Source: Hormiphora californensis (Eukaryota > Animalia > Ctenophora). From it: 64,000 nt of DNA. The stretch is from contig CM035353.1 of the NCBI GenBank assembly GCA_020137815.1, positions 1 through 64,000 of the forward strand, given 5' to 3'. The translations under genes and the position numbers were made by a program. The notes below the pieces were generated by a model. The model was not told where the DNA came from. It made no database searches and worked only from the letters and a program-made list of their open reading frames with translations. Shown here piece by piece: positions 11,260-57,844 of this stretch (position 1 is the first letter of the stretch; every line of letters starts with the position of its first letter).

Positions 11260-11326
11260 ATCAGATGTCTCAAATCAGGTGTCTCAAATCAGGTGTCTCA
11301 AATCAGATGTCTCAAATCAGATGTCT
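11260..11326. repeat. 14-bp tandem repeat (tcagatgtctcaaa)
   Basis: About 5 direct copies visible. Confidence 0.8.
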
Positions 11327-15400: not shown

Positions 15401-18400
15401 AATCAGCTAGGATTTAAATAAAAATTTTTTGCGGCTGTTCACCTCCATGTCCTCTCCAAATCCCCAAATTTTCATGCTCCTATCTCTAAAAATGTATTAT
15501 TGAGACGTCAAAAACTGTTACACAAAAAATGCTAATTTTCAATAAAAACGAGCCTTACACTTTTCGATCTGTACGACACACCTCAAATAAGGACGCGCCC
15601 AAAATTTATGGCCATATAGAGAATCGTTAGACGCAACTTTTGACCAATTTACAGTTTCCACGTATTTGCGGAACTTGGCCAAATATGGCGTTAAAGTCAA
15701 AAAAAAGAAATCCACCTCAGGACCGGAAATCAGCTCCGATTTCAAAAAAATTTTTTGTGGCTACTCACCTCTTTGTCCTCTTCAAATCCACAAATTTTTA
15801 TGATCCTATCTTTACAAATGTATTTTTGAGATGCCAAAAACTCATTTTCAGTTCATTTTTCAAGCAGCTGTAGCAAAAATATGAATTCGACTTGAGAGCT
15901 CAAATTGCATATTTGAGGTCTCCTTGGCATGGCCTACAACCCTACGGTGAGAGATTGCCCTGCACTCGAAAAAAAATTTTGGTTAGCGTACCCTTAAGCA
16001 CTGCGAATAGTCAGTCAAGTTTGACCGAGACGCAGTAAGTGCACCCGGAATAGTAGTCAAGCAGTCAAAAATCTAAACCACACCCAGGGGTCCCCACACC
16101 AAGGAGACTCAACACAACCCAAGTTGACCCTGTGGACTGACCCTTGAATTCGAATGGCTCATCTAACTATATTAAATGCAAACTGTATTGGATAATTTTC
16201 ACGTGCAAATTGAGTAGTTGACTCGATGGTGTTTGCTGAGTTTTCTACCGAGCTACGTCTCATAATCGCCGGCACAGGGACAGGGAACGAAGTTTTCTCT
16301 AAATTTGCAATCGGTACGATCACCCCATGGTTCTCTATAGTTCTCCCAATACAATAAGCATCCTACAAAACAATCGGTTAGATCAAATCATACAGATAAG
16401 TAGCAATTTAAATACATCAATAGGATCGAAACACACAAAACAATTAATTACTAAAATATTATACCTGAACCAGTAGAAAAAGTCCGGCCATTCCAATCCC
16501 CTGGAAAAACCTTGCTAAACCCAGAATGGTGAAAATGGCCCATGTTTGGTCAGTTAAGTCCACTAAACAGGTTGCAAGGGTCGCCACACTCGCTACTGAG
16601 CAGTAGAGGACACATTTCCACCGGATACTGTACTTCAAACGATGCAAGAAAAAGGCAGAAAGTCCCATTGAAAGTTGAAGTGCTCCGAGGACAAAACCTC
16701 CTGAAACAATCTAAGTTCGAGAAATGCTCAAATTTATATTTACTAGCGCACCCATTGGGTGCGCCCCAAGTGAGGGCTTTTTGATAACCCACAGGGCTTC
16801 GCCGTGTGGTTGTTTTTGCCACTTTTAACGGATATAACACGGTTGCCATGGCAACTGAAGTGGTAACTATGGGGAATGAATTGTTAAAACTCATTCGAAA
16901 ATAATAAGAAAATTCCACTGGAAGTTCCAAAAGTGTGAGCAACAGTTTAACAGCTTTGGTTGCATAAAATGTTTTATGAAGGAGCACCCATTCCTACAAA
17001 ATTTTTGCTGTCGATAATGAGTGGAACAAGACTGAAGGAATTAAATCAAATTCGGGCTCTACTAGATGAACATGGAATCCAGTACTCGCAGAGAATGAAG
17101 AAAGCCCAACTAATGGATCTGCTAGGAGATATCTACCAAGACTCACAAAACAACATGGAGTCAGTGGAAAAATGTCCCGAGTGTAGTAAAACAGTAGACA
17201 ACGGCGTCCAATGTGATGGGTGTCAATTGTGGTTTCATTGCAAATGTGCTAACATCAACGATGCAACATTCAAAAACATCGGAAGGTACGGAACACACTG
17301 GGAATGTATCACTTGCAGACAGATTCCATCTTTTGACAAAGTTACTACAAAAATTGAGCTAAAGTGGGGAAATTTTCAAGGCAACCTAGAGTCAACACTC
17401 AACGAAATTCACGAGAAGGTGTCCTCTTTCCGACCTAACTTGTTTACATTACCCAATGGTAAGGCTGGAAAGGACTACATTGAGATGATCAAAGATTTAT
17501 GTGATAAATGGACGGACAAAACTGATCTACAGGGTATCGCTCTAACAGCCATTCATGTAAGTGGCGCCTTGCTGTTACAGAAACCGCGAAAAAACAGTAA
17601 ACACAAAGATCACTTTGACCTCTTGACCAAAAGATTGGAAAAATGGAAAGATGGGCAGTTTTATCAGCTATTATCAGAAGCCACTGCCATTCAGGGTAGG
17701 CTAAACTCATCAACAGCAGGAAACAAAACCGACACTAATCTTGCATTCTCAAGACTAATGTTGGTAGGGAGAGTGGCAGCAGCTCTCAGACTACTCAGAA
17801 CAGCACAAGGAGGCCCACTGCAAGTAACACCTCAACTGATAGACGAACTGAAGAAAAAACATCCACCGGCCCAGAGAATTGCTGTAGAACGATTAGTATC
17901 AACCACGATGCACCCAACAGTCGAACCTGGAACACGTGTACTGATATCTAGGCGAGCTCCATCCGCCGTAATAGTTCCCTCCGGGAGACTCATTCCTCGT
18001 ACATTTAGCAGATGGGGTTCAACTTTCGTGTCGTGACACACATTACTGAACTCACTTGCGATAAAGTCTCTCACGTTGTTGTGGCGAAAGCATACAAAAC
18101 CGCCGATCTTACATGAAATTGAGTGATCGATACTATTTTCCTCTCCACACACGCAGTTGGTAGGCAGTGCTTCTCCTGTCAGCGGCAAGTTGTAACGTGC
18201 AGACAGAGCATCATGCCACTCTTGTCTGTTCAATGTAAAGTTCAGTGCTTGGAGGGGAAGACAAGTAAGCCAAGAAGATGCACCTTTCTCAGACAGGAGA
18301 TCAAGGTTCCTGCTTTCGGCGCTAGTCATTTTGCTTCGAATCTCCTCAATTTTCTGATGATGAATGTCATTTTTGGTACGGCGAATAATTGATGATTTCT

Positions 18401-21400
18401 CAGTTTGTTGGTTTTTGTCAACCTGAAATGTTTCGTGTTGGCCAAGAACCGCTGCAGACAAGTCTTCTGTGATGAACTTAGAAAAGCTGTACTCCGAATC
18501 CGCTGATAGTTCTGGGTTATCAATTCCCAATCCTCCAAATCTAACAGGGAGGGATGCAACTGATCTCAAGGTGTCGCTGATAACATGTTGGCCAGTTAGT
18601 ACAGGAAGAAGTTTTTGGTGGACGGTTTTCTCGATGACTCCAAGTTGTTGGGATATTCCTGGAGTTGTTCTCATGAGGTAGCTCCACCTTTTCGAGATCC
18701 CGATGGTGTATGCACTATAGGCTAGCTGTGGTTCGTTTACTGCAATTTCACAGAGTTGACTGATTTCCTCGTTCCATTTTGCAACCTCGTTCTGAACAAA
18801 TTCCCTCTGGCTCTCCTCTGTTCCGATGTATGATCCTAGGTAGCGTTGGCCGTCTGTAGTGATGTTGACGTCCGTGAACATTTCCCTTGCAGTTTCTTCG
18901 TATTGGGGTTTCACAATTAGCCACGATTTTCCGGGGTTAGGGAGGTATCCGTAGCCCGGTCCGTCACTCTTTATTTTTTCCCACCATGATTTTACTGACG
19001 AAAGTTTGCCTCCACCCAGGCCATCATCGGCATAGAATATTTGAGTGAGAGAGGAGTCCTTTAGGGAGCGAATGAGGGGCATGAGGCAACAAGCGTACAT
19101 GGGCATAGCAGCAGTGTCTCCCTGGGTTGTACCCTCGGCTGATTTCATGGTCTCATGGGTCATGCCATCGCATAGGAAGAGATCAGCTGTTAGTCCGTAC
19201 GTATTTTTCAAATATAATTCGAATTCAGGGCAAGTATAGTTAATATTATTCAAAGCTGACACACGATTTAACGAATTGAATGCATTACTAGCATCTACAA
19301 GCAAAATACATTCACAATTTTCACTCTCAAATAAATCTCTTGCTGCGTGAACAGCAGCCTCCACACCGCTTTCGAGTCCTGCACACAGTTGAATTGGTGC
19401 TGTGCATTCAATAATGTCCGGTTTGAGGGCTCGAGTGATAACTTTGCCCACCAATCGTCTGAGTATTTCACCAATCCCGATCGGTCTAATACCAGTTGGC
19501 TTCTTGCTCAGTGGAACTAGCCGGGAGGCCACATAGGATGTAATATGTTTCGGGTCGATTGGTTCTGTAGCTATCTTAACAGCAAAGGTGGCAATAGCCT
19601 GTGCTAACTCAGTTGACGACGGGCTCAGCTTCTTTGATAACAGTATGTGTTTCCATAAATCTGAGTTAGCTCCTGATGGACCTCCAGACCCTGTTAATGT
19701 ATTAGCAGCTTTGATGACAGCCGCTGCAGATATTTGGGAGAACATACAGTCAGTTTTTGGGAGGAGTGGGCCGTTCAGGAGCGTAGATGAATCTGAGCTG
19801 GGTGGGTGTTTCTTAGCCAGCTCCTGGACGACAGATGGTGTAATAGGAACTGGTGCTACATCACTTTCACGAATCGCTCGTAGTGCCTGTCCGACCTTTC
19901 CTTGCAGCATGAGTCGTGTAAAAGCTTTCAGTGCGTTTCTCGATTTTCCTTCATTGCTTGCCAGTCTGCTTTGAATCACCCTTCCCTCTCTCAGTAAAGA
20001 ATGAAAGTCTCCGTCCTGGAAGAGCTTGAGCCTTCTTTCAATGGCGATGGTGTGATCGCGGGATTTACTGTTGGCTGATGGTTTTTGGAGCACCAATGGA
20101 AAGAGTATAAACAGCAGCATGAGTGCAAAGGGCCTGTTACTCGTGTTGTTGTTGAAAGAGTTGAGGCAATTGGCCGCTTCACGGACAAAGTCTTTACCTG
20201 CACGACCAGAGGGGACCTGGCAGAGATTTTGCCTCCAGAACACTACCTCTTTGTAGGCATGGTTGATATCGCGGTGAAAGTCGGACACAAAACACTCTGA
20301 ATCGTCGCATTTAGGTGTAGTTTCGGCGATGTGATCTTCGAGAAGTTTTACCAGGTCAGCTTTCTTCGTGTTGGATTTGAATTTCACACCACGGTCACGT
20401 AGCTCGGTCCGGATTTGTTCAGCAGTTGTTTTCATGACCTCAAGAAACTTTCAAAAAAGTTTAAGCTTTTCAAGTAAAAAATATCATTCAACAAAAACTT
20501 GAGATAAACGATGTGGAATGGGCAGAGCAACAAGAAGAAATGAACGAAGAACACAAGAAAATATCCAAGAACAAGAAAAAAGAGTCATTGGAAAAACTAG
20601 AGAACATTATCTCCGAAGTCGATGGACCACTCAGACGCCAAATTGAAGATCTCAGGCAACCGGGAACTTCTAGTTGGCTCACCACTCTGCCTATCAGAGA
20701 GTATGGATTTGTCCTGAACAAGCAGGAGTTCAAAGATGCGTTAGCCATAAGGTACATGCTCCCACTTGCTGATATCAGTGAGACATGCGGCTGTGGGGAA
20801 TCAGCTACTATTGAACACTTGTTATCGTGCATGCGTGGTGGATACACAAATGCTAGACACAACCAGGTCCGAGACATCACCGCAATAATGATGAAAAATT
20901 CCGGATGCGGGGACGTAAAGATCGAGCCAACACTGTTGCCCCTTACTGGAGAGGAACTAAATAAAAACAGCAACACTAGGGAAATGGCAAGACTGGACGT
21001 GTCTGGAAGAAATTTCTGGTCTAAGGGAGACAAGATCTTTGCGGACATCCGTATATTTAACTCGTTGGCACCAACAAATCAAATTAACACCATCGAGAAA
21101 ACTGCGGAGATCCATGAAGGTCAGAAGAAAAGGGCCTATGGGGAGAGAATCCTAAATGTGGAACGAGCTACCTTCACCCCACTTGTGTTCTCAACAATCG
21201 GAACATTCGGACCAGAAGCAGAGCGGTTCTACAAGCGTCTTGCTGGCTTGTACTCGGTTAAGTCGAAACAAAGCTATAATGACGCCATTAGATACATTAG
21301 ATTACGATTATCATTTTGCATTCTCAAATCAGTACTCATTCAAATTCGAGGCTACCGAGGGTCTCTACCATTCTATCCTGATCTAATAGATATGAATCTA

Positions 21401-21862
21401 GTACCTTTATTCCTTTTATAAATCATGTTATTAGTATAACCTATTTCTATATATTTTGCGAGATGTTGTATAACATGACATTATAAATTTGTTCTATCTT
21501 TTCTTTTCTACCCGGTTATTATTTGTGGTTTTTTGATCTTTGATGTCGATTTTTTTTCAAAAACCCTACTTGGGATTAGATTAATTCTTTTTTTAATCGA
21601 CTAAGCTAATCCTGAGCTTTCGAAAACACACCCACCCTATTGATATAGATCTGATGAAAAATTATTTATATTTATAGGCATATTGTGACATGTGTATACA
21701 GTGGCTCGGCAAGTGGAGTTACATACCGGCAACATCGCTCAGGTTCTGAGTTCGGAAATATTCAAGTTGAAACATGGCCGTGTGAGTACGACATGATGTG
21801 ACCACAACGTTACCAAAACAAGCAAACACCAGATAAAATACATTTTCAGTTATGAAAGGCAT
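12493..21862 (-). CDS. MFS-type transporter, paralog 2 (4 exons, TE-expanded introns, one frameshift near 12811)
   Basis: Exons 21862-21727, 16700-16465, 14208-14058, 13272-12493. Exons 1-3 have the same lengths as in paralog 1 (136/236/151). An extra A near 12811 shifts the frame (pseudogene or sequencing error). Confidence 0.75.
14319..16143. mobile_element. Kolobok-like non-autonomous element (outer) in MFS intron 2
   Basis: TTAA|GGGTCAGT...ACTGACCC|TTGA; imperfect ~190-bp TIRs; RR..YY termini at a TTAA site. Confidence 0.65.
14555..15993. mobile_element. Kolobok-like foldback element with ~555-bp near-perfect TIRs (inner)
   Basis: TTAA|GGGTACGCTAACC...GGTTAGCGTACCC|TTAA; arms 14555-15110 and 15438-15993; the mirrored ORFs in the track reflect the palindrome. 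Confidence 0.85.
17017..17934 (+). pseudogene. CRE-clade retrotransposon A, N-terminal part (HeH/SAP-like, PHD finger, pre-RT region)
   Basis: ORF 16960-18036: QIRALLDEHGIQY...KKAQLMDLL, C4HC3 PHD, NLFTLPNGKAGKDY...LLLQKP (CRE-type); interrupted at ~17934. Confidence 0.8.
17935..20435 (-). CDS. CRE-clade retrotransposon B ORF (SAP/HeH-like, RT, CCHC, RLE truncated)
   Basis: 867-aa ORF: GSGGPSG, RPIGIGE, LLVDASNAFNS, GTTQGD, YADD, CVCG..H..SC, RHN, RLDI. The RLE is cut off after RLDISTR at the junction with element A. Confidence 0.9.
20483..21421 (+). pseudogene. CRE-clade retrotransposon A, C-terminal part (Zn knuckle + restriction-like endonuclease)
   Basis: SSWLTTLP, CGCG..IEHLLSC, RHNQVRD, RLDV..FW..DIRIFN, EGQKKRAY, FTPLVFSTIG; ends in a stop at 21421. 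Confidence 0.85.
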
Positions 21863-23515: not shown

Positions 23516-23558
23516 CCCTAGCCCTAACCCTAACCCTAACCCTAACCAAGCCCTAACC
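23516..23558. repeat. Interstitial telomere-like (CCCTAA)n tract within a repeat element
   Basis: ccctaaccctaaccctaaccctaac; a diverged inverted counterpart with similar flanks lies at ~36570-36680. Confidence 0.6.
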
Positions 23559-24158
23559 ATGCTCACGGGTGACAACTAAAAATCTGGACAATTTTCTGTG
23601 AGCTCTACCCCCATAGAAATTTCGCGCGGAGGAACCTGCATTCTCCAGCCTTTTAGTCACACGAATGAAGGTAATTATCCAAGAAAAAACCAGCTAAATT
23701 CCTGGAGAAAACAGGCATTCGTGCAGTCATTGTCTACTGCTGCGTTCCCCCTTTCAACTTTGTCTGGTGTATCTCAGAAAATATTTAACTTACAGACTCC
23801 CAAAAAACGGGAGGTAACATAATATTGTAGAAAATATACTACTATCTGGGTTTATTTAGATTAATGCACAGATACATAGCTATAGTTAGTGACACTTGGT
23901 GTCATAATTTTCTCCCATTGTTGTAGGTATTCACTTGACAGCTACCCCCTCTTTCTCTCCCATTCTCGCCCCTCTCCAGCCAGACAGTGTTGAAAGGGGA
24001 AACGAAGCAGTATTATTTATTTTATTATTATTAAATCTTGTATACATAATACATAACGCTTCTTTCTTGTAAGCTATACGGAATTAACAACTGAAAAGAT
24101 TCACTGCTGATTAGATTCTATGCTCTTGAATTTTCTAAACTTAGTGATAAGTATATAT

Positions 24159-25250: not shown

Positions 25251-25286
25251 ATATATATATATGTATTATATTATATTAGTGCTGTA

Positions 25287-25913
25287 CAGTCGGACCCCGA
25301 TTTAGTGGCCCCCGATTTAGTGGCACCCCGATTTAGTGGCAGGATTTTTTTCCCCCAAAAATTTTTTGAAGTTTTTTGTGAAGTTTTTTTGAAATTTTTT
25401 TGAAAATTTTTCAAAGGAATACCAGCCACGTCCGAATCGTGTTTCGAATCAGTGAATCTTATCGCATGTCCTGCTGCTAATTAGACGGTTCGGAACGAAC
25501 CGATACGTGATCCCCATGGGGCCATTGAATCATAAGTTCACCAAGCGTCAAAATTTCGATTCGATGGGATCACGTTTCAATTCGTTCCGAACCGTCTAAT
25601 TAGCAGCAGGACATGCGATAAGATGTACCGATTCGAAACACGATTCGGACATGGCTGGTATAACTTAGAAAAATTTCCACAATTTTTTTGAAAAAGTTAT
25701 TTTATAGTTTTCTATTTCTAATCAGAAATGATCATGTCATCAATACATGAATATTGCATATAACAGTTAGAGGTGTCTTTAGTTTTAGTACAGCATTTTG
25801 GGCATAAAATAGGTTTTTATGGGCCAAATATGGCTCACCCCGATTTAGTGACACCCCGATTTAGTGGCAGGATTTCTTTCCCCCGAGGATGCCACTAAAT
25901 CGGGGTCCGACTG
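25287..25913. mobile_element. Tc1/pogo-like MITE (CAGTCGGACCCCGATTTAGTGGC TIR, TA TSD)
   Basis: TA|cagtcggaccccgatttagtggc...gccactaaatcggggtccgactg|TA; same family at 58018-58100 and a degenerate copy at ~40997-41146. Confidence 0.85.
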
Positions 25914-26296
25914 TAGTAATATAATAGTTGTAACAGATAATGATTAATAAAGTTAATAAAGTTAATAAATTAAGTAATGTAATAAGTTAATAAGATAACG
26001 ATAGTAATAATGGTTAATTAAGCTATGTAATGTAGTAGAGGAAAGCTACATTACTAGGCTATAGTAAAAATAGTAAAAAAAGATTATTTTCACGGAATCA
26101 CACGTAATTTAAATTTTAAGACGAAAATTTAAGATTTAGAAGTAGTAAACTTAAGACTAATTTAGGACTAATTTAAGACTTAATTAAGACTAATTCAAGA
26201 CTAATTTAAGACTAATTAGAGACTAATTTATGACTATGAAGCTTGGATAACTAATTTATCTACTAAATAAAGTATAAACTTACGATAGCTGCTACG

Positions 26297-29200
26297 TTAC
26301 GTCAATAGATTATCATCAAATGTAGAATTCTCTAATATATGTGCTACTAGCATTCTGAACTTGCGTTTCACGTTTTTGTCTTGACAAAATATTAAGGGGA
26401 TACGGTAGTTTAATTCGTAGATGGCTAAAGAGCTAAGCTCCTGTCTTAGAGCAGACACTGCCCCTGCAGATACACATTCAAATAGTTTGTGGTAAGATGA
26501 GTCGGGCAACAACCCACACTCTAGGCATGTCGGAACGGACACCGTGCTGTCATGCTGCAGATACCGGAACGCAAAGTTCTGAAAACGTAGATTATGACCG
26601 TGAGTGAAGTCGATAATCGCCGTAGATTCTCCTCTACTGAGAGCTCGATGGAGAAGAGGGGTGAGAACAACCTCCCTTGTGTTGACCAGTCTTCTCAAGT
26701 CCTCCACCGTGTGACTAGGTTCCAGCGTATATTCATCGGTTTTGAAAAGGTGTTCCATTTGTTGTTTGACGGTATCATCCCACAGTTTGTATCCGTAGTC
26801 GTCTATTTCTCCTTTGGTGTACAATAGCTGATCTCGCTCATAGTTTATCAAGTCACATCTTCTGAGAAAGCTCCTTCTTCTCGTAGCTGCCGGAACATTA
26901 GCATCTGTACTCTCCTGATCCTGGTCCTCCACCCATCGGAGATAGCATTTGGTCATGGTTAGATGATGTGCGAACTTATGGTACGGTTCCGAGTCAATTT
27001 GTAGAAGTTTGGCACTGATGCTATCCTCAGCTAGCAACCCTTTCAGCACAAATTTGATCGTCAGAATCCTCAAGGTGACTGCAAGAGGTGGTACTGTTGT
27101 GAGAAGGTCTCCTATCATGTTTGGGACATGAAACTGACTTCCCAGGATTTTCAGCTTGGCTCGAGCCATAAGGTCTTTAAAGCTTGATATCCGGTCTTCC
27201 AGCCAGAGAGGGGCCGCGTATAGTAGCTTCGTAAGCACCACTGTTTTGAAAAGTAAAGCCAACGAAGTACTATTCAGTCCATCCGTTCTAGTTGTGGATG
27301 TCGAGAGTCTACTCCATGCAAACCAGCATTTCTTTAAGGTAAAGGACGCATGTTGTTGAAAGTTCAGGTCTTTGTCTAGATAAACGCCCAAAACCTTGCT
27401 GGAATCTGCATGTAAAATTTCTTCATTGCCGAGGTAGAATTTTGAAAGTACTGTCGGTGGTTCTGATCTTTTAGGACGAACAACAAGGATTTCAGTCTTG
27501 TCTTTTCCACAGTTCACCACCAGCCGCCAAGTCCTACACCATTCGTGGATGTATTGTAGTACTCTTTGCATAGATGATTCACATTCTTTGTCTGTACCAG
27601 TGATAACTACAGTTCCATCGTCTGCAAATTTGAATGTTTCAGTGTGGTGACGAATATCAGTTGGTAAGTTTCTCGTAGTCAGAAGATCTCCGATGTAAAG
27701 GATAAATAGGAGAGGCGAAAGTACTGCTCCTTGTGGTAATCCTGTGGTTCCACAGATTCTGGCTCGTCCCACCTTTCCGTTTATCTTCAAACTGACCAAT
27801 CGGTTGCTAAGCATAGAATGGAGTAATTTCAGGATTCTGCCACGTACTCCTAAGCGATGGATTTTGTAGATGAGGAGAGGAATCGGCACACTGTCAAAGG
27901 CCTTCTCGAAATCTATCAGCAAAAGATAGGCGGTTGCCTTTCTCCTACGGTTTTCATGTAGAGTTGCCAGCATTCGGTATAGATATCGAGTACAGCTCCG
28001 GTTTGGTAGAAATCCTTCCTGTTCATCTTCGAGCAACGTTTCGCTATAGCAATGGTCCCTCATTCTTCGGTCTAACACCCTCTCAAAAAGTTTACCGATG
28101 TACATACTGATGGTGATAGGGCGGAAGGACCCCGGTTTGAGATATGAGCTCTTTCCTGCTTTCTTGATGAAGGAAACCGTTGATGCTCTCCAGGGCCATA
28201 CTGAACACTTCAAACACAAATCGAATAATTCGGCTAGAAAGTTTACTGCCCGACCTCCCATATGTTTCAGAGTTCTCGGGTGAACCCCATCTCCATCCGC
28301 TGCCTTTCCACTCCAATCCTGTGCTGAGATCGCCTGTTCCACTTCTCTTCGTTCCACTTTGCTATTCAGTAGGTTCTCCTCTCCAGGTTCCTCGTCCGTT
28401 AAATCCACTGATATGATGTCCTCCACTTGCCTGCATATCCGCCTGTACTCCTCTTCATCGAAGTCCCTGTTCTTGAGGTGTTCCCCTTCAAAGTACGTCC
28501 TAAACAGTATATCTTCTTTTTCTGATTGACTGTGTTTCAGGGTGCCTTCAAAATCCAAACACCCTATGAAATTTTCCTCTTGGGCCAAGAACAATCCTCT
28601 GTAGCGCTTCCAGAAAAGATTACTGTCGTGCACATTTAACCCTTGAAGTCGTTCATGTATCCACTTGTTCTTACTCTTAATCAGCGTCTCCTTGAAGATG
28701 GCTTTCGCTGCTTCCACGAGTTCTTTATTCCGAGTTGTTCGCCTGAATTGATAGTGTCGTAGAGCTCCTTGGAGATTTTTTGATAGTCCCGACAGTTCAT
28801 GTGTCCAGAATGGTTTGCTATATCGACAGATAGTCTTCTTCGAGATGAATAGTTCACATGCTTCTCTATGTATCCTCAGAAACTCCTTGTACAAGTCCTC
28901 TGGATCTTCAGTTCCACGTATTTCCGGAAGATGACGCTCTAAAAATTCCTTCCACTCGTCCCACTCTGCTTCCTCGTAGTTGAATACCCTCATCCGCTGT
29001 ATGTGTTTATTGACCTGACCAATTGTTATATGTACTGGTATGTGTCCTCGATCCGGCGCTCCAGTGAACAAACAAAGCCCTTCGTCCTGATCGACCCAAA
29101 GTCCCCTAAGTGGTCCAGAGTTGCCAAATATCAATGTGAGATCTATGACACTACCTCCTCCAGCGCATAGAAACGTATTCCTCATCGGTGATAAGATCCG

Positions 29201-29692
29201 GGCCCCCTGCTGGTTACAAAATGTCTCTAGTAGATGACCATTGCTGTTGTAAAGTCTATCGCCCCAAGCTTGTCCTCTCGCGTTAAAGTCCCCCATGACT
29301 TGGAGAGTAGCAACCCCGTTTGCATAACAGTATCTCCAAGCCTCTTGAATGGTGCTTAGTAGTCTGCTGAGGTCCGACGACGGGCTACTGTATACCGAAG
29401 CATACATCACAGGTCGCTTTGAAGGTGTTGCAATCACGAAAACAGCTGCAACACCCTTTACTTCTAAACTGGGAATTCTCTGAGGATAGAACGACTTATC
29501 AACCGAGATGGTGACACCTTGATCGTCTGCAACTCCAAAAGTTCGTAGGTTTTTGAAAACGTCCTCGTTTGGTACCGTACCGGTTTCCTGCAGTGCCAGT
29601 ACCGTGATGTTTCTATCGGAACAATAGTGGTCAATCGCTGTACTGGAATGAGAAGAGAGGCCCGAAATATTTAGTTGACAGATACTAACCAT
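26297..29692 (-). CDS. LINE-A ORF2: AP endonuclease + reverse transcriptase + C-terminal CCHC
   Basis: 1131-aa intact ORF: QLNISGL, LQET, GDFNA, IDLT, DRGH, IDFEKAFDSV, GLPQGAVLSPLLF, FADD, CLECG..YHKLFEC. Confidence 0.95.
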   Translation of the reverse strand: MVSICQLNISGLSSHSSTAIDHYCSDRNITVLALQETGTVPNEDVFKNLRTFGVADDQGVTISVDKSFYPQRIPSLEVKGVAAVFVIATPSKRPVMYASVYSSPSSDLSRLLSTIQEAWRYCYANGVATLQVMGDFNARGQAWGDRLYNSNGHLLETFCNQQGARILSPMRNTFLCAGGGSVIDLTLIFGNSGPLRGLWVDQDEGLCLFTGAPDRGHIPVHITIGQVNKHIQRMRVFNYEEAEWDEWKEFLERHLPEIRGTEDPEDLYKEFLRIHREACELFISKKTICRYSKPFWTHELSGLSKNLQGALRHYQFRRTTRNKELVEAAKAIFKETLIKSKNKWIHERLQGLNVHDSNLFWKRYRGLFLAQEENFIGCLDFEGTLKHSQSEKEDILFRTYFEGEHLKNRDFDEEEYRRICRQVEDIISVDLTDEEPGEENLLNSKVERREVEQAISAQDWSGKAADGDGVHPRTLKHMGGRAVNFLAELFDLCLKCSVWPWRASTVSFIKKAGKSSYLKPGSFRPITISMYIGKLFERVLDRRMRDHCYSETLLEDEQEGFLPNRSCTRYLYRMLATLHENRRRKATAYLLLIDFEKAFDSVPIPLLIYKIHRLGVRGRILKLLHSMLSNRLVSLKINGKVGRARICGTTGLPQGAVLSPLLFILYIGDLLTTRNLPTDIRHHTETFKFADDGTVVITGTDKECESSMQRVLQYIHEWCRTWRLVVNCGKDKTEILVVRPKRSEPPTVLSKFYLGNEEILHADSSKVLGVYLDKDLNFQQHASFTLKKCWFAWSRLSTSTTRTDGLNSTSLALLFKTVVLTKLLYAAPLWLEDRISSFKDLMARAKLKILGSQFHVPNMIGDLLTTVPPLAVTLRILTIKFVLKGLLAEDSISAKLLQIDSEPYHKFAHHLTMTKCYLRWVEDQDQESTDANVPAATRRRSFLRRCDLINYERDQLLYTKGEIDDYGYKLWDDTVKQQMEHLFKTDEYTLEPSHTVEDLRRLVNTREVVLTPLLHRALSRGESTAIIDFTHGHNLRFQNFAFRYLQHDSTVSVPTCLECGLLPDSSYHKLFECVSAGAVSALRQELSSLAIYELNYRIPLIFCQDKNVKRKFRMLVAHILENSTFDDNLLT

Positions 29693-30257
29693 GATGAAGA
29701 TCGTTTTGATGGGCAGTATATACTGGACAGGTTGTACTGTTGGAGTTGTGATTTCCTGTGCAGTGGATACACTTGGCCTCGGCTTGACAGGGATCCGCTG
29801 TATGCGTGCTTACCCTCTCACCACATTGAACGCAGGCCTCGTTGTTATTGCACCATGCGGTCCAGTGCCCGTATTTCCAACACTTTCGACATTGGAGCGG
29901 TTTGATCACCCGTCTGTCGATATACTCACGTATACGGAAGTGCCTTGTGTCTATGTTTAGTCCCATAGTTATAGCCTTATTCCTCAGATCTTCCGATTCA
30001 AAGATTAGCCGTACAGAGTATCTTGGGTTTCCATTGTTATCAGTGAATCTGTAAACTTTTGGCGTTGTTCCCAGTTCTTCCGAGCAGGCTTCCATAATCT
30101 CAGTATCAGAGACTTCTAGAGGAACATGATCCATAACTGCCTTTTGACTCGGACCTGTGTTAGCGAGGATGACGGCTGAGGTTTTAGTCCCTTCACCCCC
30201 AAAGAATTTAGGTTGCCACCCGTCAACCACCTTATGTGCATCTGCAGGGGATGTCAA
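29685..30257 (-). CDS. LINE-A ORF1 (gag-like, zinc knuckles), N-terminally truncated
   Basis: QCRKCWKYGHWTAWC, CVQCG..H..C, CIHCTGNH..C; overlaps the ORF2 start by 8 nt. Confidence 0.85.
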   Translation of the reverse strand: MTSPADAHKVVDGWQPKFFGGEGTKTSAVILANTGPSQKAVMDHVPLEVSDTEIMEACSEELGTTPKVYRFTDNNGNPRYSVRLIFESEDLRNKAITMGLNIDTRHFRIREYIDRRVIKPLQCRKCWKYGHWTAWCNNNEACVQCGERVSTHTADPCQAEAKCIHCTGNHNSNSTTCPVYTAHQNDLHHG

Positions 30258-30752
30258 TTGATTTGATTTGTAAAAGGATAAAAATCAATATAATACACAA
30301 TGTATATAATAAAGATAATATCCCGGCTGGCTCCTATTGACGGGATGACAATATTGATGGAGCGCTTACACCTCAAGTATAGATTTAAAACACACACCGA
30401 CAGCTCTCACATGCACACTCTACAGACAAACAAACTTGTAATACAGTATACTTTTTAATGATAAGGTAAGTTTAATAATTTAGTTAAATGGAATTTTAAT
30501 TTAAGTATATAAAAACCCCCAGAACCCTTCCAACCCCCGGTCATTTAGTTGTATGTCTTGGTTCTGTCTGTTCCTAATTTGTCTTATATGCTGAGATGAT
30601 TGTCCTAAACAAAACATGCTCCTCGGCTGTGTCGGCAAATTCCTCATCATCGTTTCAAACCCACCAGCACAACATCAAACAAGAAACCAGAATGAACTAA
30701 ACCATGCATTTCACCTAATTTTAAATTTTAAATTTGCCGACACAGCCGGGAA

Positions 30753-33700
30753 TTAAATATTCTCTAACAAATGCTCACCAAGCCTAGTACAAAAGTCATC
30801 ATGCTCTACAATATGTCGCATATCCGTGGGCAGCTTGTTCCACTCCTTATGACAGCGGTAGAAGTAACTGTGAACGAAAGTATCAGACCTAGGTTGTTCA
30901 GTACAGATTATATCTGTCGAGTCTCTGTTATTTTGTAGTCTTGTGCATCGTCTATAGTCAGAAATGTGGTCGTACTTGTGCAAAAATGATGGTAGTAATG
31001 TTGGCGTCGTGCCATAAAATATTCTGTGAAACAGTTTTAAATCACTAAATAGAAACTTCTCTGAGATAGGTAGTAAGTTACATTGTTTGAGCTTTGACAT
31101 GTATGTTTCATGGTCATAGCTAACATCTTCTTCATTATTAACCCATTTTACAGCCCTTTTTTGGAGCTTCTCAAACTTCATAAGCCCAGCATCGCTAACT
31201 GGACGCCAGACTTGACAGCAATGCTCAAAAAGCGACCTAACTAAACTAATATACAGGGTCCTACGCTTGTGACAAGAATCAATCAGTGTGCAGACTCGTT
31301 TCACTAATCCTAGTCGCTGTGAGAATTTTGAAAGTGTTTTGTTCTGGTGCTCAGTAAAAGATAGCTTCTGGGTAGTATGCACCCCTAAATCAGTTTCACT
31401 AGAGTGCCTATTTATTTCAGAATTACCCAAAAAGTACCTAATATCCAATGGGCTGCGCTTGTGAGTGCACCTAAGTAGTTTACATTTGTTAGGATGGAAT
31501 TTCATACGGTTCACCGCAGCCCACTGGAGGAGACTATCTATATCGACTTGCAAACTATCGTCTTCAGACTCAACAACCCTCCACATCTTAAGATCATCAG
31601 CATAGAGCATTACACTGGTACCATCCCTGACGGAATCAACTATATCATTAATAAATAATACAAACAAGAAAGGTCCTAAGATCGATCCTTGTGGCACTCC
31701 ACTATCTACGCTCGCCCAGTTAGAAAACTCACCATCTAGTAGAACTCTTTAGTCTTTGTTGTCTACCAGACAAATAAGCCATTAAAAACCTGAGCATCCT
31801 ACCATTAATATCAAACCTTTCTTTCAACTTTTTAATAATAACATCATGCGAAACACTATCGAAAGCCTTTTGAAAATCAAAAAATATTATATCAGTCTGA
31901 CACTTATTGTTGATGTTAAGTGCCATCTCACAGTTAAATTCAATCAATTGTGAAGCACATGATTTATGTGGAACAAATCCATGTTGCTTTGGAGTGACTT
32001 TTTCGAGGCAAGCTTTGTACAGCCGTTCTCGAATTAAGTCTTCAAATACCTTCATAACTAAAGATGTGAGAGAGATCGGGCGGTAATTTTCCACGTTTGA
32101 TCGGTCTCCCTTTTGTAGACGGGGACAACGTTTGCATTTTTCCATTCTTTTGGTATATCACCCGTACTATAAGCCTTATTAAATATAAGAGTCAAAGGAT
32201 AAGCCAATGACTGACTACAATTTTTCAAAACAATACCTGCAATATTATCAGGACCACATGTTTTTGAACTATCGATCTTCTTTAGAATACCAACAACTGC
32301 ATCCATACGGAATATCTCATGGTTGAAGTCGTTAGTATGATTTCTGAGTAAGTCGACCGACTCGTTGTACACACTGGGATCAGTAAACTGGTCACAGAAA
32401 AACTCATTAAACATCTCACACTTTCTATTGCTATCATTCTCAAATCTGCTAGATAGGTGGACAGAATCAGGGATTCTGGTGCTACTACTCTTAGACTTAA
32501 CGTGCTTAAAGAACATCTTAGAAACATGTGCGGAGGAAGGGTTCTCGTGTAGTGTTGAAACCTCAAGAAAACTTGCCTCCTTAGCATTAACTTCATCTCG
32601 ATACTGCGTCTCAAGAGTAGCGAATTCTCTTTTAAGCTCGCTATTTTCTGGGTGCTTAATAGACAACTTTCTAGACTTATCAAGTGATTTCTTTAGCTGT
32701 CTCAATTCATCATCGTACCATGGTGGTTGTGATCCAATTTTCACATTAACCATGGGCACGTGATTCCGAAGAGCAATGTCTAGTCTAGATTTAAAAAATT
32801 CAAGAGAACTCTCAGCTGACCTATTGGCCAACGAATTGAGCCAGTCTACGCCCAAAAGCTCCTTATTCAGACTTTTCCAATCAGCTTTTCTATAACAAAA
32901 CTTTTTAACCTTTTTGTATTTTGGTCTAGATTTCTTCACACTGATCTCAAACTTCAGGGCGCAGTGATCCGATCTCACCAACCCACCCTCCTCGATAGAT
33001 ATATTTGAGAAAGCAGAAGGTGTGTTAGTCAGTATCAGATCCAAAATGTTCCCATCCCTGTGCGTTGGCTCGTTTACTAACGAGTTCTGGCCCAGAGACG
33101 CAAACAGATGGATGAAGTCCTCATGCACCCCGACATTTGAAACAGGAGATTCCCAATCTTTAACAGAACTGAGATTTAGGTCACCCACAATAGTGAGATT
33201 TTTATATTTTCTAGTAAGTAATGTGTAGTAACGCTCCGCTTCAGAGCAGAAATCAGACCCAGAGTAGTCATATCTATACAGTGTTGATAGACATACCTGC
33301 GCCGAATTCCTAGGCTTCAGAAGGACTGAGACAGAGGGTAGCCAAGTCTTCGTCTTAACTTCCTCGACCTCTAAACCAATGTCATTCCTACACATTATCA
33401 TGACACCTCCTCCACCTTTCTTACAATACTTAGTCATATCTTCAACAGTCCTATCTTTTCTAAATATTGTGTAATACTTGTCAGATACAATTTCAGCATC
33501 CTGAACATACTTACTCAGCCAAGTCTCGTTTAGCACAACAATATCGGGAGAGTAAGTGAACAAGTAGGCTTTGATGTCTCTCAACTTAGGTTCCATAAGT
33601 TGAGGACTATCACTTCCTATCGAGTGCATCTTAACAAGTCCATTAACATTACAATACACAACATTCAGTTTTGATTTCATATCATTTGGCCCAGGATTTT

Positions 33701-34202
33701 TAACATCTGGGTGGTTCCTAACAAGTAAAGTTCTAGAAACTGAGGATACATACTTTGATAGTGTATCAAAACAGTATCTCAGTGACCTAGAAAATAACAA
33801 AACAATACTTTTACACTTACCGATACGCTTACCTACTTTGGTTGACATGAAATACTTCGCCATAACAATGGTAAACACACTGTTAGCGTACCACACAATC
33901 TGCATGCTAAACCAACATTCACTCTTATCTCTTCTGAATCTCAGACAGTTCTCAGAGGATGATGGTGGACTTAGTCCAATCATAGATCCTATGAGAGCAG
34001 TTATTAGCACACAATAGCAGGTGATGATAATCAATTGTGAGAGATTAGAATGTGATGTCTTTCCGTTAGGTCTATATGTTCTTGTCTTGTCAGGTTTTGT
34101 CTTAGTAGTCATACCTCTTCCCCCCGCAAACCTCCCAATACTTTGTCGATACTGCTCAGAGCTAATCAGTTTGGTACTTCTTATTGGGACAGTTGTAACC
34201 AC
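30753..34202 (-). pseudogene. LINE-B ORF2 (APE + RT), broken by two frameshifts
   Basis: Pieces 34202-32058, 32145-31729, 31697-30753: LNETWL, GDLN, RSDH, NYRPISLTS, DFQKAFDSV, PQGSILGP, YADD. Confidence 0.9.
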
Positions 34203-34447
34203 AGGTTCACGTCTCGCGGCAGGGATAGGAGATATAAGGGTAAGGGAAAAAAAGGGGGGTTGTTGTTGTGCTAAAAATGTTAAAAATGCTAAAAAAGGGG
34301 GGGGGGGGGGGTGGGGGCTGAGACGAGTAAAAATCAGTAAGACAATTTACCCGGTCCCCAATCTATCAATAAATTATTATTATCATAAATTCAGCTTGAA
34401 AACTATAAATTCAGCTAGAACATCAGCATAAAGCGGGAAAACGTACA

Positions 34448-35481
34448 GCTACACACACTCAATCGATATCAGATCTGTGAGTAGGGCATAACCATACTTG
34501 TTCAAGTGAACACCATCCCTGCTGAACAAAGACTCATTCTATGAGCAATGAACCCCTAGTGGTAGGTTTAAATTGGTCTACTGGCATGTTAGGATAATTT
34601 AAATTAAATTCAGTCAAGATTAAATGTCCCTGTGCTAAATATCTATTATAATTAACCACCCCTCTCACTTGTACAGTCCGTTTTGGATCACATCTCGACT
34701 TCCCTACTTCTCTCGTTCCCTCAGGCATCTTAGGCCTCACCGTTCCACCGATTGACTGTCCCATGGTGTTCACTCTTCCGGCATCTTGCCATGTTGAATC
34801 ATTGGCTGGTTCACGGATCGGGACGTCCCTGCGACGGGCTGGGCTGAATGTTACATTGTTTGAGCTCACAGCAGATGTTGTACTAGCAGTGTTCAAAGGA
34901 GGAGTCAAGTAACTCTTGTTCAATGATTTACCGACTTCCTCTACAATATTGGTGTTTATATCGGTAAGAAACGCGGTAACTTTGCCTATCATGGCCTGCT
35001 CAAAGTTTTCTAAACGATCGTCCAATATCTTCTGGGTAAGCAGTGAAGGCTCCTCGTTTTGAATCGTACAGTCAAGTTCATTCTTCCTACATTCAGGGCA
35101 GAACCATGCTAGTCCTTCGTGATCGGAAATAACTGCACATGTTCTGTCGTCCTCCAGTATCTCAGAGCATGCACTGTTTCGGCATTTGACGGTAAGGTCT
35201 CCACTAACAGTTGGCGGTGCAATGGGGGTGATGTCACGCTGATCGTCTATAAGTTCTTCAGTTAACTGGTACGCATTCTTCAGCACTTCCAGGATTAATA
35301 GCCTTGTGGGCTTGCCACTCGAAGGGATTGGAGTACCTTTGGTCACATAGGTCATAAGGTCAAGCGTTTCCAGGTTAGACTTCAGGGCCAAGAATTTGTC
35401 ATGGCGCAGTTGCAGCTCACCTGGGGTCCTTGATTTCATCGTCCCAGGCGTTTCGTTACTGCCCATAACGGGCGGGCCCAT
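34448..35481 (-). pseudogene. LINE-B ORF1 (PHD-like WFCPEC, coiled coil, RRM-like; SGNH esterase mostly deleted)
   Basis: First ATG at 35481. After the ORF stop a second frame reads SLFSRDGVHLNKYGYALL (esterase DxxH motif). Confidence 0.7.
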
Positions 35482-35497
35482 GTATTTGTTCCTAAAA

Positions 35498-35536
35498 CTC
35501 AATAAATAGTTTTACGTTGTAGTTGATGAAAGTTGT
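35498..35536 (-). other. Spliced-leader-like 39-mer (ACAACTTTCATCAACTACAACGTAAAACTATTTATTGAG) at the LINE-B 5' terminus
   Basis: Lies exactly between the insertion junction and a point 16 nt before the ORF1 ATG. It ends in TTGAG, is not followed by a GT donor, and resembles ctenophore SL exons as I recall them. Confidence 0.65.
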
Positions 35537-35628
35537 ATAGACAATGACTGCACGAATGCCTGTTTTCTCCAGGAATTTAGCTAGTTTTTTCTTGGATAAT
35601 CACCTTCATTCGCGTGACTAAAAGGTAG

Positions 35629-36479
35629 TAAAGTCCGTTTCAAGCGACTTGACCCGTAATTCTTGGAATTTGGCGCATTATTATTATTTTTATTAAATCT
35701 GTTTACAATAATTTGACACTGTCAATATTGCCCTCCTATTTGCGAGGAAAATGGAACTCTCTAGGTCTCTTTCACACTTTCTCAGCTGTCAGATCATACA
35801 AAAAATATAAAATGTCGATTAAAATACTGATTAGATAATGATTAAAATATATTGTAAATTGATTAAATAAGTTAGTTAAAAATTCACTCCGTGGAGTGCG
35901 ATTCGTACACAGTGTGTACGTCTCGGGTTGGTCAGTTATACATTTACAATTGATTAGAATATATACCCATTACACAAGCAGTTGATCCCCAAATAAAGAT
36001 TGTTCTATTACAGCTCTTACTAGCTTTCTAAAGTTCGATTTTACCTGCTTGTCTTTGGAGAAAATTAGTGGAAGATGGAAGTTCATTTCATAAGAAGATA
36101 TCACCCTTAGTTCCTCACGGGGCCCTTCCACATCTTTTATCGCAGAACATTCAAACAACTTATGGAATGTTGAATCTGGGAGTTGGCCACATTCAAGACA
36201 ATTGGGAACTGTAAGTGATCGCTCGTATCTCAGGTAACTGAAGCTGAAGTCTTGAAAACGTAAGGATCTGCCATGTACAAAGTCTAAGACCTGAGATGAG
36301 TTCTGTCGGGACATGTTTCTTGGGATTATGGGGAAATCCAAAGTGGCCTCTGAGTTGATAAGGTTGGCGAGTTCTTCTTGAGAGTGAATAGGAAGTATTG
36401 GCGCATTGCACGTGTATTTACAAAGGGGAAATCCTGAATTTCCAGGAATCTCAGGTCAAGTCGTTTGAAACGCACTTTA
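35629..36479. mobile_element. MITE with TAAAGT(C/G)CGTTTCAA(G/A)CGACTTGACC TIRs, interrupted by a LINE fragment
   Basis: Inverted termini at 35629 and 36479. Confidence 0.6.
35680..36397 (-). mobile_element. 5'-truncated LINE related to LINE-A
   Basis: ORF 35970-36341 is homologous to the LINE-A ORF2 C-terminus (CLECGQLPDSTFHKLFEC); (TAA)n tail; 10-bp TSD TTGGCGCATT at 35670-35679 and 36398-36407. Confidence 0.85.
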
Positions 36480-38416: not shown

Positions 38417-38722
38417 AAGCTAAAGAAAGTTTGGAACAAGATTGCTTTCATTTTCTAAATGTTTCCGGAATTATAGATCCCGCTTCGGATTTATGAATGC
38501 CTGGAAACATTCTTGTTTCCTCAGGTTTTTTCTTGATTTTTATGCGCGTAAATATAGACACACATAATATAGATATAAAGATAAATTTCCCTGTACAATA
38601 GAGCCAGTTAGCGGAGGGCTGTAGACAGCGCTTACACCTATCAAGAGAAATATTAAGTCAATTTATAGCATATTAAGAGAAAATATGATATTTAAAGTAT
38701 TATGTATCATAGTTACATTGTA

Positions 38723-39357
38723 CAGGGTGTTCATATGGGATCTTTACAAGCGTTGGGCTTCACCCAGAAAAAAGTTAACAAGATTAGGTCATGAAACTTC
38801 ATACTTGGACTATTCTATACCCTCATTCAAGGTTCCTGGGGGTTTTGGAGCTCTAGCAACCCCGGAAGTGTGTTTTTGGCATCATAACTACCAGAAGGAA
38901 TTTTCTGCTGGTGCTGAGACTTTGCTAAAATGTTTTTTGGGTATTTTCTATGTCAATCCCAAAGTTTCATGGAGATTGGATGTGTTTTACGGACTCAAAA
39001 TTTCGTAAAAAGTTGCTGGAAAGGCTCGAAAACGGCTCAAAAACGACAAAAATTGAGTCTCCAGCAACTTTTTACGAAATTTTGAGTCCGAAAAACACAT
39101 CCAATCTCCATGAAAATTTGGGATTGACATAGAAAATACCCAAAAAACATTTTAGCAAAGTCTCAACACCAGCAGAAAATTCCTTCTGGTAGTTATGATG
39201 CCAAAAACACACTTCCGGGGGTGCTAGAGCTCCAAAACCCCCAGGAACCTTGAATGAGAGTATAGAATAGTCCAAGTATGAAGTTTCATGATCTAATCTT
39301 GTCAACTTTTTTCTGGGTGAAGCCCAACGCTTGTAAAGATCCCATATGAACACCCTG
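38723..39357. mobile_element. Tc1/mariner-like foldback MITE (TA TSD)
   Basis: TA|cagggtgttcatatggga...tcccatatgaacaccctg|TA; ~300-bp arms. Confidence 0.9.
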
Positions 39358-40523
39358 TATTAAACAATGAGACGTTCACAGTACCGAACTTTAATCAATA
39401 AATGAAATATGAACAACTAACAAGTTACTTTGATCTAGTGCTGTGTAGGAGTGACGTTCAATGTCATCCTAAACTACTGCTACTTTAACTGGAGATCCTT
39501 TAACCCAGGTGTTACCTCCACCTCTATGTACCCTAGGTTATCCTGGCTGGATCGGTGGACAATGCGTTGTGTTAATGAATACCTGCGTTAGGAGTGAGGT
39601 GTGATATTAACTAGTTTCAAATCAAAACTATCAAAAGACAAGATATAACAAGGCTTCGAACTAATCACTATAGTACAAGTGTGTACTTCCTCTAACATAT
39701 AAACCAAGTGTCTATACTCAAACTATGCAGGGACATCATAGTCCAATCAGATCAGGTTCTCCCAACCCACAGTAGGGTCCTCAGTGACTGATTCACAATC
39801 AAAGTCTGGTCAACGGGAACAACACTCAATCATAGTCCAAGGGTGGCCAAGTCAAGGCATCCAATCACGTGACTCCAAGTCCTTCTCCAGGTAATCCGTA
39901 TTTAATGACTCCGTTCCTGGCTCGTGTCTCCCTTGGTAAGATATTGTCACCAGGTCGAAAGTAGAACTGAAACTGCTGTAGCTCCTCTTCAGGAATAGAA
40001 GTATCATTGCATTTAGAGGCAGGAATGTCGATGAACTAGAAGCTCCGCCTTGATCCAAGTCGAATTATCTCCGACAGGTTCTCTACTCGAGATGAGTAAC
40101 ACCTTATTTACCTCTGTATGAACCAGGGTAATTTGCCCAATTACAAAATGGGACTCTACTGCAACCCCGTGCGGTTGTCAATCATCACATTAAACCAAGC
40201 TTGATGATTCAAGCCATGAGAGTATATCATGGTGCATAATGCAGTATATTCCAGATAACATGTGTATATCAAGAATTAATCAAGGGACACATATCAGTGT
40301 TCCCGCAGCTGCAGCATGCTGACAGCATGCTGCAGCATGCTGACACGATTTTAGTGTTTTTCTATTTCAATGATGATTTTTAAATGTTTTAAATTTTCTC
40401 ATGATCACAGATCATTTCAATCTCAACTTTTTATTTTCCGAATAACCCTCTTGCAGAAAACAGTTGTTGTAATTTTAATCAGCAATTAAAAACTCCCATA
40501 ACCTGATCTAGACAAGACAGAAG

Positions 40524-57844
<17,321 letters not shown>

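What the first reader, a model, noticed from the sequence alone, without database searches (positions are those of the whole stretch)
35498..35537. Spliced-leader-like sequence forms the exact 5' terminus of a retrotransposon insertion
Seen: on the - strand the insertion begins (T)ACAACTTTCATCAACTACAACGTAAAACTATTTATTGAG, then 16 nt, then the ORF1 ATG. No GT follows TTGAG, so it is not an SL RNA gene. Known: ctenophores use SL trans-splicing. From memory their leaders are ~40-46 nt, A/C-rich, contain ACTTT..CAAC..CTAC and end in TTGAG; I cannot verify an exact match here. Inference: the LINE RNA was trans-spliced and reverse-transcribed up to the cap. That would be a genomic fossil showing these LINEs use host trans-splicing, possibly in place of an internal promoter, which trans-splicing would remove.
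Basis: partly seen in the sequence, partly recalled or inferred. Interest (0 to 1): 0.8.

Follow-up and report, generated by a model that had tools for sequence, protein, structure and literature searches.

The report
Comb-jelly LINE headed by spliced leader
A jumping gene (LINE) in a comb-jelly genome begins with 37 letters identical to the leader that this lineage splices onto its messenger RNAs, so this copy was most likely pasted back into the genome from a leader-spliced RNA, as already proposed for flatworm transposons.

Summary
The leader is real. Window 35534-35498 (- strand, 37 nt) is identical to a ctenophore spliced-leader (SL) exon. Of 23 metagenome contigs holding its last 23 nt, 18 carry it at their 5' end before unrelated genes, and 3 are SL RNA genes with a GT donor.

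(1) The copy is 37 nt, at least 5 nt short of the leader's 5' end, so it does not reach the cap.
(2) The ORF behind it belongs to an outer LINE (about 35534-25930; three CCHC knuckles, intact APE-RT ORF2), whose ORF1 is split by a nested 4.3-kb LINE.
(3) No significant target-site duplication was found, so 'exact terminus of the insertion' is unproven.

The SL joins the LINE exactly at the exon's last base, 16 nt before the AUG, as in host mRNAs. Trans-splicing before retrotransposition is the likeliest cause (0.85). Two more SL-headed LINE-like loci turned up. The idea is in print for flatworms; my searches found no ctenophore case. Whether SL replaces a promoter is untested.

The parts
35498..35534 (-). 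Genomic copy of the host spliced-leader exon, last 37 of at least 42 nt; ends at the exon's last base, no intron part
   Evidence: Exact match to SL RNA gene L012; same 3' end on 18 mRNA-like contigs
35535..35537 (-). 3 nt that are neither leader nor the upstream repeat; first 3 nt of a 7-nt candidate target duplication (35537-35531, copy at 25932-25926), not significant
   Evidence: (shuffle rate 0.31)
35538..35625 (-). 88-nt piece of an unrelated high-copy repeat (second copy at 23649-23736, 96.6%); either the 5' flank or filler at the junction
   Evidence: loose ends show other copies continue differently on both sides
35482..35497 (-). 16-nt remainder of the 5' UTR between leader and ORF1 AUG; holds a second U-rich AG (35497-35492)
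   Evidence: host mRNA spacing 1-63 nt, median 8, n=17
34537..35481 (-). ORF1 of the outer LINE, N-terminal 315 codons (PHD-like lead only)
   Evidence: aa 120-315 match aa 2-212 of Mnemiopsis leidyi P0020, a relative of the outer ORF2 (E 1e-7); Atlas leads 0.80-0.83, below threshold
30258..34536 (-). Nested, 5'-truncated second LINE (APE + RT, broken frames, short pentamer-repeat tail, 3-nt duplication) that splits the outer ORF1
   Evidence: Pfam APE and RVT_1; contigs of X1 and X3 skip it (loose end at 34536 matches 30227-30256 at 29 of 30 letters); inner-family contigs of X6 and X9 run on past 34538
29685..30257 (-). ORF1 of the outer LINE, C-terminal 190 codons with three CCHC knuckles, in frame with the N-terminal part
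   Evidence: zf-CCHC_3 E 0.021, below cut-off
26297..29692 (-). Intact ORF2 of the outer LINE (about 1130 aa; APE endonuclease, RT, C-terminal Cys/His cluster; no RNase H hit)
25932..26296 (-). 3' UTR and AT-rich repeat tail of the outer LINE; exact end not fixed
   Evidence: sequence; a MITE begins at about 25915

Best explanation
The 37 nt are an exact copy of the host's spliced-leader exon, joined 16 nt before ORF1 of a two-ORF LINE, most likely because the LINE's RNA was trans-spliced like a host mRNA and then copied back into the genome. Shown: the identity with the SL exon, the junction at the exon's last base, and the outer-LINE anatomy with a nested second LINE. Inferred: a source element was transcribed with upstream sequence ending in an AG acceptor, and the spliceosome replaced that sequence with the capped leader. 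The RNA was translated and used in cis for target-primed reverse transcription, which stopped or was joined 5 or more nt short of the cap. A later LINE insertion into ORF1 disabled this copy. Such a copy has no room for an internal promoter, so it is likely silent unless read through from outside.
For: 18 of 23 contigs carry the same leader end at their 5' end. 13 of the 15 of their ORFs that I scanned hit unrelated Pfam families above cut-off (tektin, PDH E1, kinase, NAC, DM10 and others). 3 of 23 are SL genes with a GT donor, two hairpins and a U-rich motif between them. PDH E1 of L021 is 80% identical to Bolinopsis and at most 61% to other named organisms among the 120 hits listed. The junction has no intron letter, and its spacing to the AUG lies inside the host range. 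The SL gene's 300-nt flanks have no real match in the window (best E 0.05). An independent DNA run (X3) has a contig with the same junction and 17 nt of leader, which argues against an assembly chimera. Two further loci have 42 nt of leader in front of ORF1-like frames: L020 (PHD, E 4e-6, 715 nt of DNA upstream) and L016 (repeat tail). In DNA runs, 17-19 contigs of X3 and 19 of X5 leave the leader's 3' end with mixed letters whose majority is not the SL-gene donor (agreement 0.45-0.47).
Against: No RNA contig or read joins the leader to this LINE: X22 and X15 cover only the leader. No copy showing the unspliced upstream sequence and its acceptor could be read. No significant target duplication: an 8-nt candidate proved to lie inside the inner LINE, and two 7-nt candidates compete, at a shuffle rate of 0.31-0.41 for the one tested. 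The X3 contig departs from the window after 17 nt of leader and the X6 contig after 3 nt; the letters beyond were not shown, so they cannot be assigned. The mRNA contigs come from environmental samples and may be from a sister species.
Confidence: 0.85

Rival explanations
1. The leader was added during reverse transcription or by RNA ligation (template switch onto SL RNA or another SL-headed mRNA), as in U6/LINE-1 chimeras, not by trans-splicing of the LINE RNA.
For: Such chimeras are documented, with ligation or template switching as mechanisms (PMC11838501 passages). The 5' junction region is a patchwork of repeat pieces.
Against: The join is exactly at the splice donor position, with no intron and no foreign mRNA letters. 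ORF1 is complete behind it, at mRNA-like spacing. The same join recurs in X3.
Confidence: 0.05
2. The LINE inserted into an SL RNA gene or next to an older genomic leader relic, as the SL-targeting CRE/NeSL elements do.
For: SL-exon-targeting retrotransposons exist (PMC3636483 and PMC4640811 passages). Leader copies are frequent in this genome's DNA contigs.
Against: Neither the SL gene's upstream sequence nor its intron is found in the window. The element has an APE endonuclease and two ORFs, not one ORF with a restriction-like endonuclease.
Confidence: 0.04
3. The leader was captured once and is now simply the inherited 5' end of this subfamily, copied from element to element without new trans-splicing.
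For: No unspliced head was seen. X3 shares the junction and 17 nt of leader.
Against: The window's leader equals the present SL gene with no change in 37 nt. The X6 contig carries 30 letters upstream of the same junction, of which only the last 3 match. Thirty letters is what a 31-mer assembly leaves of a branching high-copy head, so this may be a different leader (inference, letters not seen).
Confidence: 0.05
4. Assembly chimera between an SL locus and a LINE.
For: Raised as a caveat for Schistosoma. No laid contig spans the whole 5' junction into the upstream flank.
Against: The X3 contig joins LINE and leader independently. A chimera with an SL gene would carry SL-gene flank, which is absent.
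Confidence: 0.01

Closest known systems
SL-bearing mobile elements of parasitic flatworms (Boroni 2018, PMC5832876: six SL exons merged to transposable elements in Schistosoma mansoni; PMC12582326: 597 loci with partial leaders beside LTR and LINE elements)
   Same: Genomic leader without SL-RNA intron next to a retroelement; both papers propose integration of trans-spliced transcripts.
   Different: There these loci were discarded as by-products and, in the passages I read, not mapped to element ends. Here the leader is nearly complete, sits 16 nt before a full ORF1 start, and the phylum is Ctenophora.
Dinoflagellate SL-relic retrogenes (PMC12014239 passages)
   Same: Reverse-transcribed, leader-capped RNA leaves the leader in the DNA at the 5' end of the copy.
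   Different: Those are host genes moved in trans and re-spliced, leaving relics. Here it is the retrotransposon itself, and re-splicing is not shown.
SL on transposon transcripts in Hydra (about 30% of TE Iso-Seq reads, PMC12220107) and SL1 on the spliced Cer1 RNA of C. elegans (PMC3315495)
   Same: Transposon RNAs are substrates of host trans-splicing.
   Different: RNA-level evidence only. The full-length Cer1 RNA did not appear to be trans-spliced. No genomic SL-headed LINE is described in those passages.
Ctenophore spliced leader of Hormiphora californensis (PMC8527503 passages)
   Same: By eye, the first 13 nt of the L012 exon equal nt 2-14 of the published leader, and both end in the same 5 nt; similar length.
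   Different: The middle differs. That paper counts 718 genomic leader copies (491 in Mnemiopsis) without, in the passages read, linking any to LINEs.
SL-gene-targeting retrotransposons CRE, SLACS, CZAR and NeSL
   Same: A leader exon lies directly beside a non-LTR element.
   Different: They insert into SL genes and have one ORF with a restriction-like endonuclease; this element has APE, two ORFs and no SL-gene flanks.

Membership tests
Ctenophore spliced-leader exon | Same sequence at the 5' end of unrelated mRNAs | tested here: met
   18 of 23 contigs; 13 of 15 scanned ORFs in unrelated Pfam families
Ctenophore spliced-leader exon | Encoded by separate SL RNA genes with a GT donor, hairpins and an Sm-like U-rich site | tested here: met
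   L012, L013, L018; two hairpins kept despite loop-length changes, U-rich motif between them; fold z -2.3. No Rfam family at gathering score. Sm binding itself is inferred
Ctenophore spliced-leader exon | Carrier is a ctenophore | tested here: met
   PDH E1 80% to Bolinopsis microptera; closest hits of the outer ORF2 with a species name are Mnemiopsis leidyi
Ctenophore spliced-leader exon | Trimethyl cap and exact start site | not testable with these tools
   Contigs cannot show RNA starts; length of at least 42 nt inferred from L016 and L020
SL RNA gene (the window copy itself) | GT donor and SL intron behind the exon; SL-gene upstream sequence | tested here: not met
SL-targeting RLE retrotransposons (CRE/SLACS/CZAR/NeSL) | Single ORF, RT followed by restriction-like endonuclease | tested here: not met
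   APE before RT, two ORFs
SL-targeting RLE retrotransposons (CRE/SLACS/CZAR/NeSL) | Inserted in an SL RNA gene | tested here: not met
   No SL-gene flank in the window
APE-type two-ORF LINE (I/Jockey-like) | APE endonuclease N-terminal to RT | tested here: met
   PF14529 aa 137-227, PF00078 aa 548-809 of the stop-to-stop frame
APE-type two-ORF LINE (I/Jockey-like) | ORF1 with three CCHC knuckles (hallmark recalled, not from a call) | tested here: met
APE-type two-ORF LINE (I/Jockey-like) | Placement in a named clade by RT phylogeny | not tested
   No labelled references held; distant hits carry RNase H, which this ORF2 lacks
SL-bearing retrocopy | Leader in sense at the 5' end, ending at the exon's last base | tested here: met
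SL-bearing retrocopy | Target-site duplication or empty allele bounding the insertion | tested here: inconclusive
   Two 7-nt candidates, shuffle rate 0.31-0.41 for the one tested; no empty allele among the rows shown
SL-bearing retrocopy | Source locus with an AG acceptor at the junction | not testable with these tools
   No genome held; the heads of the X3 and X6 contigs were not displayed

The most novel reading that the evidence does not exclude
Some comb-jelly LINEs have no promoter of their own. An SL-headed copy is read through from host transcription and trans-spliced again at the leader's own final AG or the U-rich AG 6 nt behind it. This cuts the element out of the host transcript, recaps it and regenerates a full-length template, so trans-splicing does the job that internal promoters or self-cleaving ribozymes do in other LINEs, in several unrelated families of an animal genome.
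Probability: 0.25. Interest if true: 0.75.

Novelty: new member of a known kind. Interest (0 to 1): 0.45.

Why it matters
It is a clean DNA record that a LINE RNA went through host trans-splicing and still retrotransposed with a complete ORF1 start. It suggests that some of the hundreds of 'leader loci' counted in ctenophore genomes are retroelement 5' ends, not SL genes, which matters for annotation. It makes one question testable with existing long-read data: how LINEs keep a promoter in organisms whose splicing removes RNA 5' ends. Either unspliced masters carry the family and SL-headed copies are dead ends, or the element is re-defined by trans-splicing at each cycle.

Tried and rejected
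1. An 8-nt target duplication (35538-35531 and 30554-30547) looked convincing. Rejected: high-depth contigs of three runs run through 30554, so it lies inside the inner LINE's 3' UTR.
2. Reading 35481-34534 as ORF1 of the adjacent APE/RT frames. Rejected: contigs skip the inner element, and the M. leidyi relative links this ORF1 to the outer ORF2.
3. 7-nt duplication candidates at the outer 3' end: not above chance.
4. Leader pattern in viral contigs and prokaryotic genome contigs: 0 hits. Outer ORF2 in viral contigs: no relative.
5. Rfam on two SL loci: 12 weak matches, none at gathering score.
6. RNA runs X22 and X15 cover only the leader, not the LINE; absence in contigs proves nothing.
7. 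L003 was suspected to be a LINE ORF1 mRNA; it is a leucine-rich-repeat protein.
8. Contig depths were not used as copy numbers.
9. Papers that gave nothing on this point: PMC7986045, PMC4558846, PMC2566580 (passages).
10. Earlier-finding look-ups by place and by sequence were empty; 'ctenophore' occurred in no earlier finding.

Full report
1. Observation. The quoted letters are at 35537-35498 on the - strand, followed by 16 nt and an ATG at 35481; no GT follows. No whole genome is held, so I used a metagenome scan and contigs of public runs.

2. The sequence is a real spliced leader. A scan for its last 23 nt found 23 contigs. In 18 of 23 it sits at the contig's 5' end, and the sequences behind it are unrelated apart from two pairs. 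I scanned 15 of the 18 downstream ORFs: 13 hit Pfam families above cut-off, all different (NAC, LRR, PH, DM10, tektin, doublecortin, enoyl-CoA hydratase, TPR, dynein light chain, phosphoribosyltransferase, kinase, RIB43A, PDH E1); 2 had none above cut-off. L019, L022 and L023 were not scanned. Three of 23 (L012, L013, L018) are SL RNA genes: exon, GT donor, two hairpins that keep their stems while the loops change length, and a U-rich motif between the hairpins (fold z -2.3; no Rfam family at gathering score). PDH E1 of L021 is 80% identical to Bolinopsis microptera and at most 61% to other named organisms among the 120 hits listed. The closest hits of the window's outer ORF2 that carry a species name are Mnemiopsis leidyi proteins. 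By eye the exon shares its first 13 and last 5 nt with the Hormiphora leader.

3. How much leader is present. The window equals the SL gene for exactly 37 nt, 35534-35498; about 7e-17 such matches are expected by chance. L016 and L020 match it for 42 nt, and 25-26 DNA contigs in each of two runs continue upstream with those same 5 letters as their majority. The leader is therefore at least 42 nt, and this copy stops at least 5 nt before the cap.

4. What the leader heads. The frames at 34346-30753 (APE, RT, broken) are not its ORF2. Contigs of X1 and X3 match 34536-35040 and then continue with letters equal at 29 of 30 to 30227-30256. So 34536-30258 is a nested, 5'-truncated LINE; contigs of its family in X6 and X9 run on past 34538. 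The two halves of the outer ORF1 (315 + 190 codons) are in frame and end in three CCHC knuckles, and an intact ORF2 follows at 29692-26297. Independently, the N-terminal half matches the N-terminus of M. leidyi P0020 (E 1e-7), whose remainder is 40% identical to the outer ORF2. The copy looks young: 0 differences in 292 nt to an X3 contig and 3 in 505 to an X1 contig.

5. Is the leader the insertion's exact end? Not shown. An 88-nt piece of a high-copy repeat ends 3 nt upstream. Other copies of that repeat continue differently on both sides, and that continuation is not found at the LINE's 3' flank. The site was therefore either not a clean insertion, or the piece is junction filler. An 8-nt duplication candidate fell. 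Two 7-nt candidates remain; shuffles give such a match in 31-41% of trials for the one tested. No empty allele appeared in the rows shown; 89 and 90 loose-end rows were not displayed.

6. Other copies and other elements. An X3 contig carries the same junction with 17 nt of leader and then 23 other letters. An X6 contig shares only the last 3 nt and then has 27 other letters. The letters were not shown. Thirty letters upstream of the junction is what a 31-mer assembly leaves of a branching high-copy head, so a different leader is plausible, but an unspliced head is not excluded. L020 has 715 nt of DNA upstream (an RT fragment on the other strand), 42 nt of leader and a PHD ORF. L016 has 42 nt of leader, a 319-aa ORF whose nearest Atlas clusters are unnamed ctenophore proteins, and a hexamer-repeat tail. 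That both are LINE ORF1s rests on recalled domain patterns and is likely, not shown. Against a general rule: the intact esterase-ORF1 LINE at 53609-46275 has no leader.

7. Mechanism. The leader ends on its last exon base with no intron letter, 16 nt before the AUG; 17 host mRNAs have 1-63 nt, median 8. The SL gene's flanks are absent from the window. This is what trans-splicing followed by target-primed reverse transcription would leave (0.85). Template switching or ligation, insertion at an SL locus, a once-captured inherited head, and an assembly chimera each fit worse. No RNA joining leader and LINE was seen. Whether the family lives on unspliced masters or on read-through and renewed trans-splicing is open.

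8. What is known. Six SL-transposon loci in Schistosoma mansoni (PMC5832876: passages, and supplement rows that say only 'Transposable Element') and 597 partial-leader loci beside LTR and LINE elements in flatworms (PMC12582326: passages and section 6) were already explained this way. About 30% of Hydra transposon reads carry SL (PMC12220107 passages). Dinoflagellate retrogenes carry leader relics (PMC12014239 passages). Cer1 has a trans-spliced short RNA and an apparently unspliced full-length RNA (PMC3315495 passages). I also saw passages of PMC8527503, PMC7986045, PMC4640811, PMC3636483, PMC4558846, PMC2566580 and PMC11838501. Derelle 2010 and Malik and Eickbush 2000 were not held, so nothing is taken from them. 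Nine searches (listings only, except the papers named) showed no ctenophore SL-headed LINE. Derelle 2010, Repbase entries and the unread supplements of the Hormiphora and flatworm papers could hold one. Unchecked earlier notes of this scan report the same pattern in dinoflagellates, Perkinsus and Euglena (59 findings in at least 3 genomes).

9. Verdict. Real feature, correctly recognised as a spliced leader, with corrected length and anatomy. New member of a known kind. Interest 0.45; the promoterless-cycle reading has probability 0.25 and would deserve 0.75.

Noticed in passing
window 53609-46275 (-): Intact LINE: a 1231-codon frame with a weak GDSL-esterase hit, then a 1212-codon APE/RT frame in the same reading frame behind a single stop codon. 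No leader upstream.
   Followed up: partly
window 16951-21421: Overlapping frames on both strands with weak HeH/LEM and PHD hits and an RT hit; look like two related CRE-like elements (recalled pattern), tail to tail.
   Followed up: no
window 35629-35679: 51-nt piece with extremely high summed contig depth and varied neighbours at one end. One X3 contig joins it to a leader 5' end (joint 35534-35629); another locus or an allele lacking the 88-nt piece.
   Followed up: partly
window 35040: The deepest contigs of the outer family (X1, X3) diverge here into a related but different ORF1 N-terminus: the family seems to have swapped 5' parts, and the 5' end of the main subfamily was not seen.
   Followed up: no
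L012:1480-1615, L013, L018: Ctenophore SL RNA gene with conserved upstream region, two hairpins and a flatworm-like U-rich Sm-type motif; not in Rfam at gathering score.
   Followed up: partly
L016 (whole), L020:716-1165: Two further leader-headed ORF1-like loci. L016 is a 1.25-kb ORF-only element with a hexamer-repeat tail, possibly a non-autonomous LINE derivative.
   Followed up: partly
L014, L022: Leader followed by GT but not by the SL intron; long coiled-coil ORF without a Pfam family above cut-off in L014.
   Followed up: no
window 9021-14262 (-): Two near-identical tandem copies of an MFS-transporter-like gene, one with a shifted frame.
   Followed up: no
window 61920-64000: 49-bp satellite array, about 97% identical units.
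   Followed up: no
window 14551-15997, 23737-24011, 25283-25915, 38721-39359, 55428-56917: Several MITE-like elements with long terminal inverted repeats.
   Followed up: no
window 23520-23550: Short run of telomere-type hexamer repeats inside a dispersed repeat.
   Followed up: no
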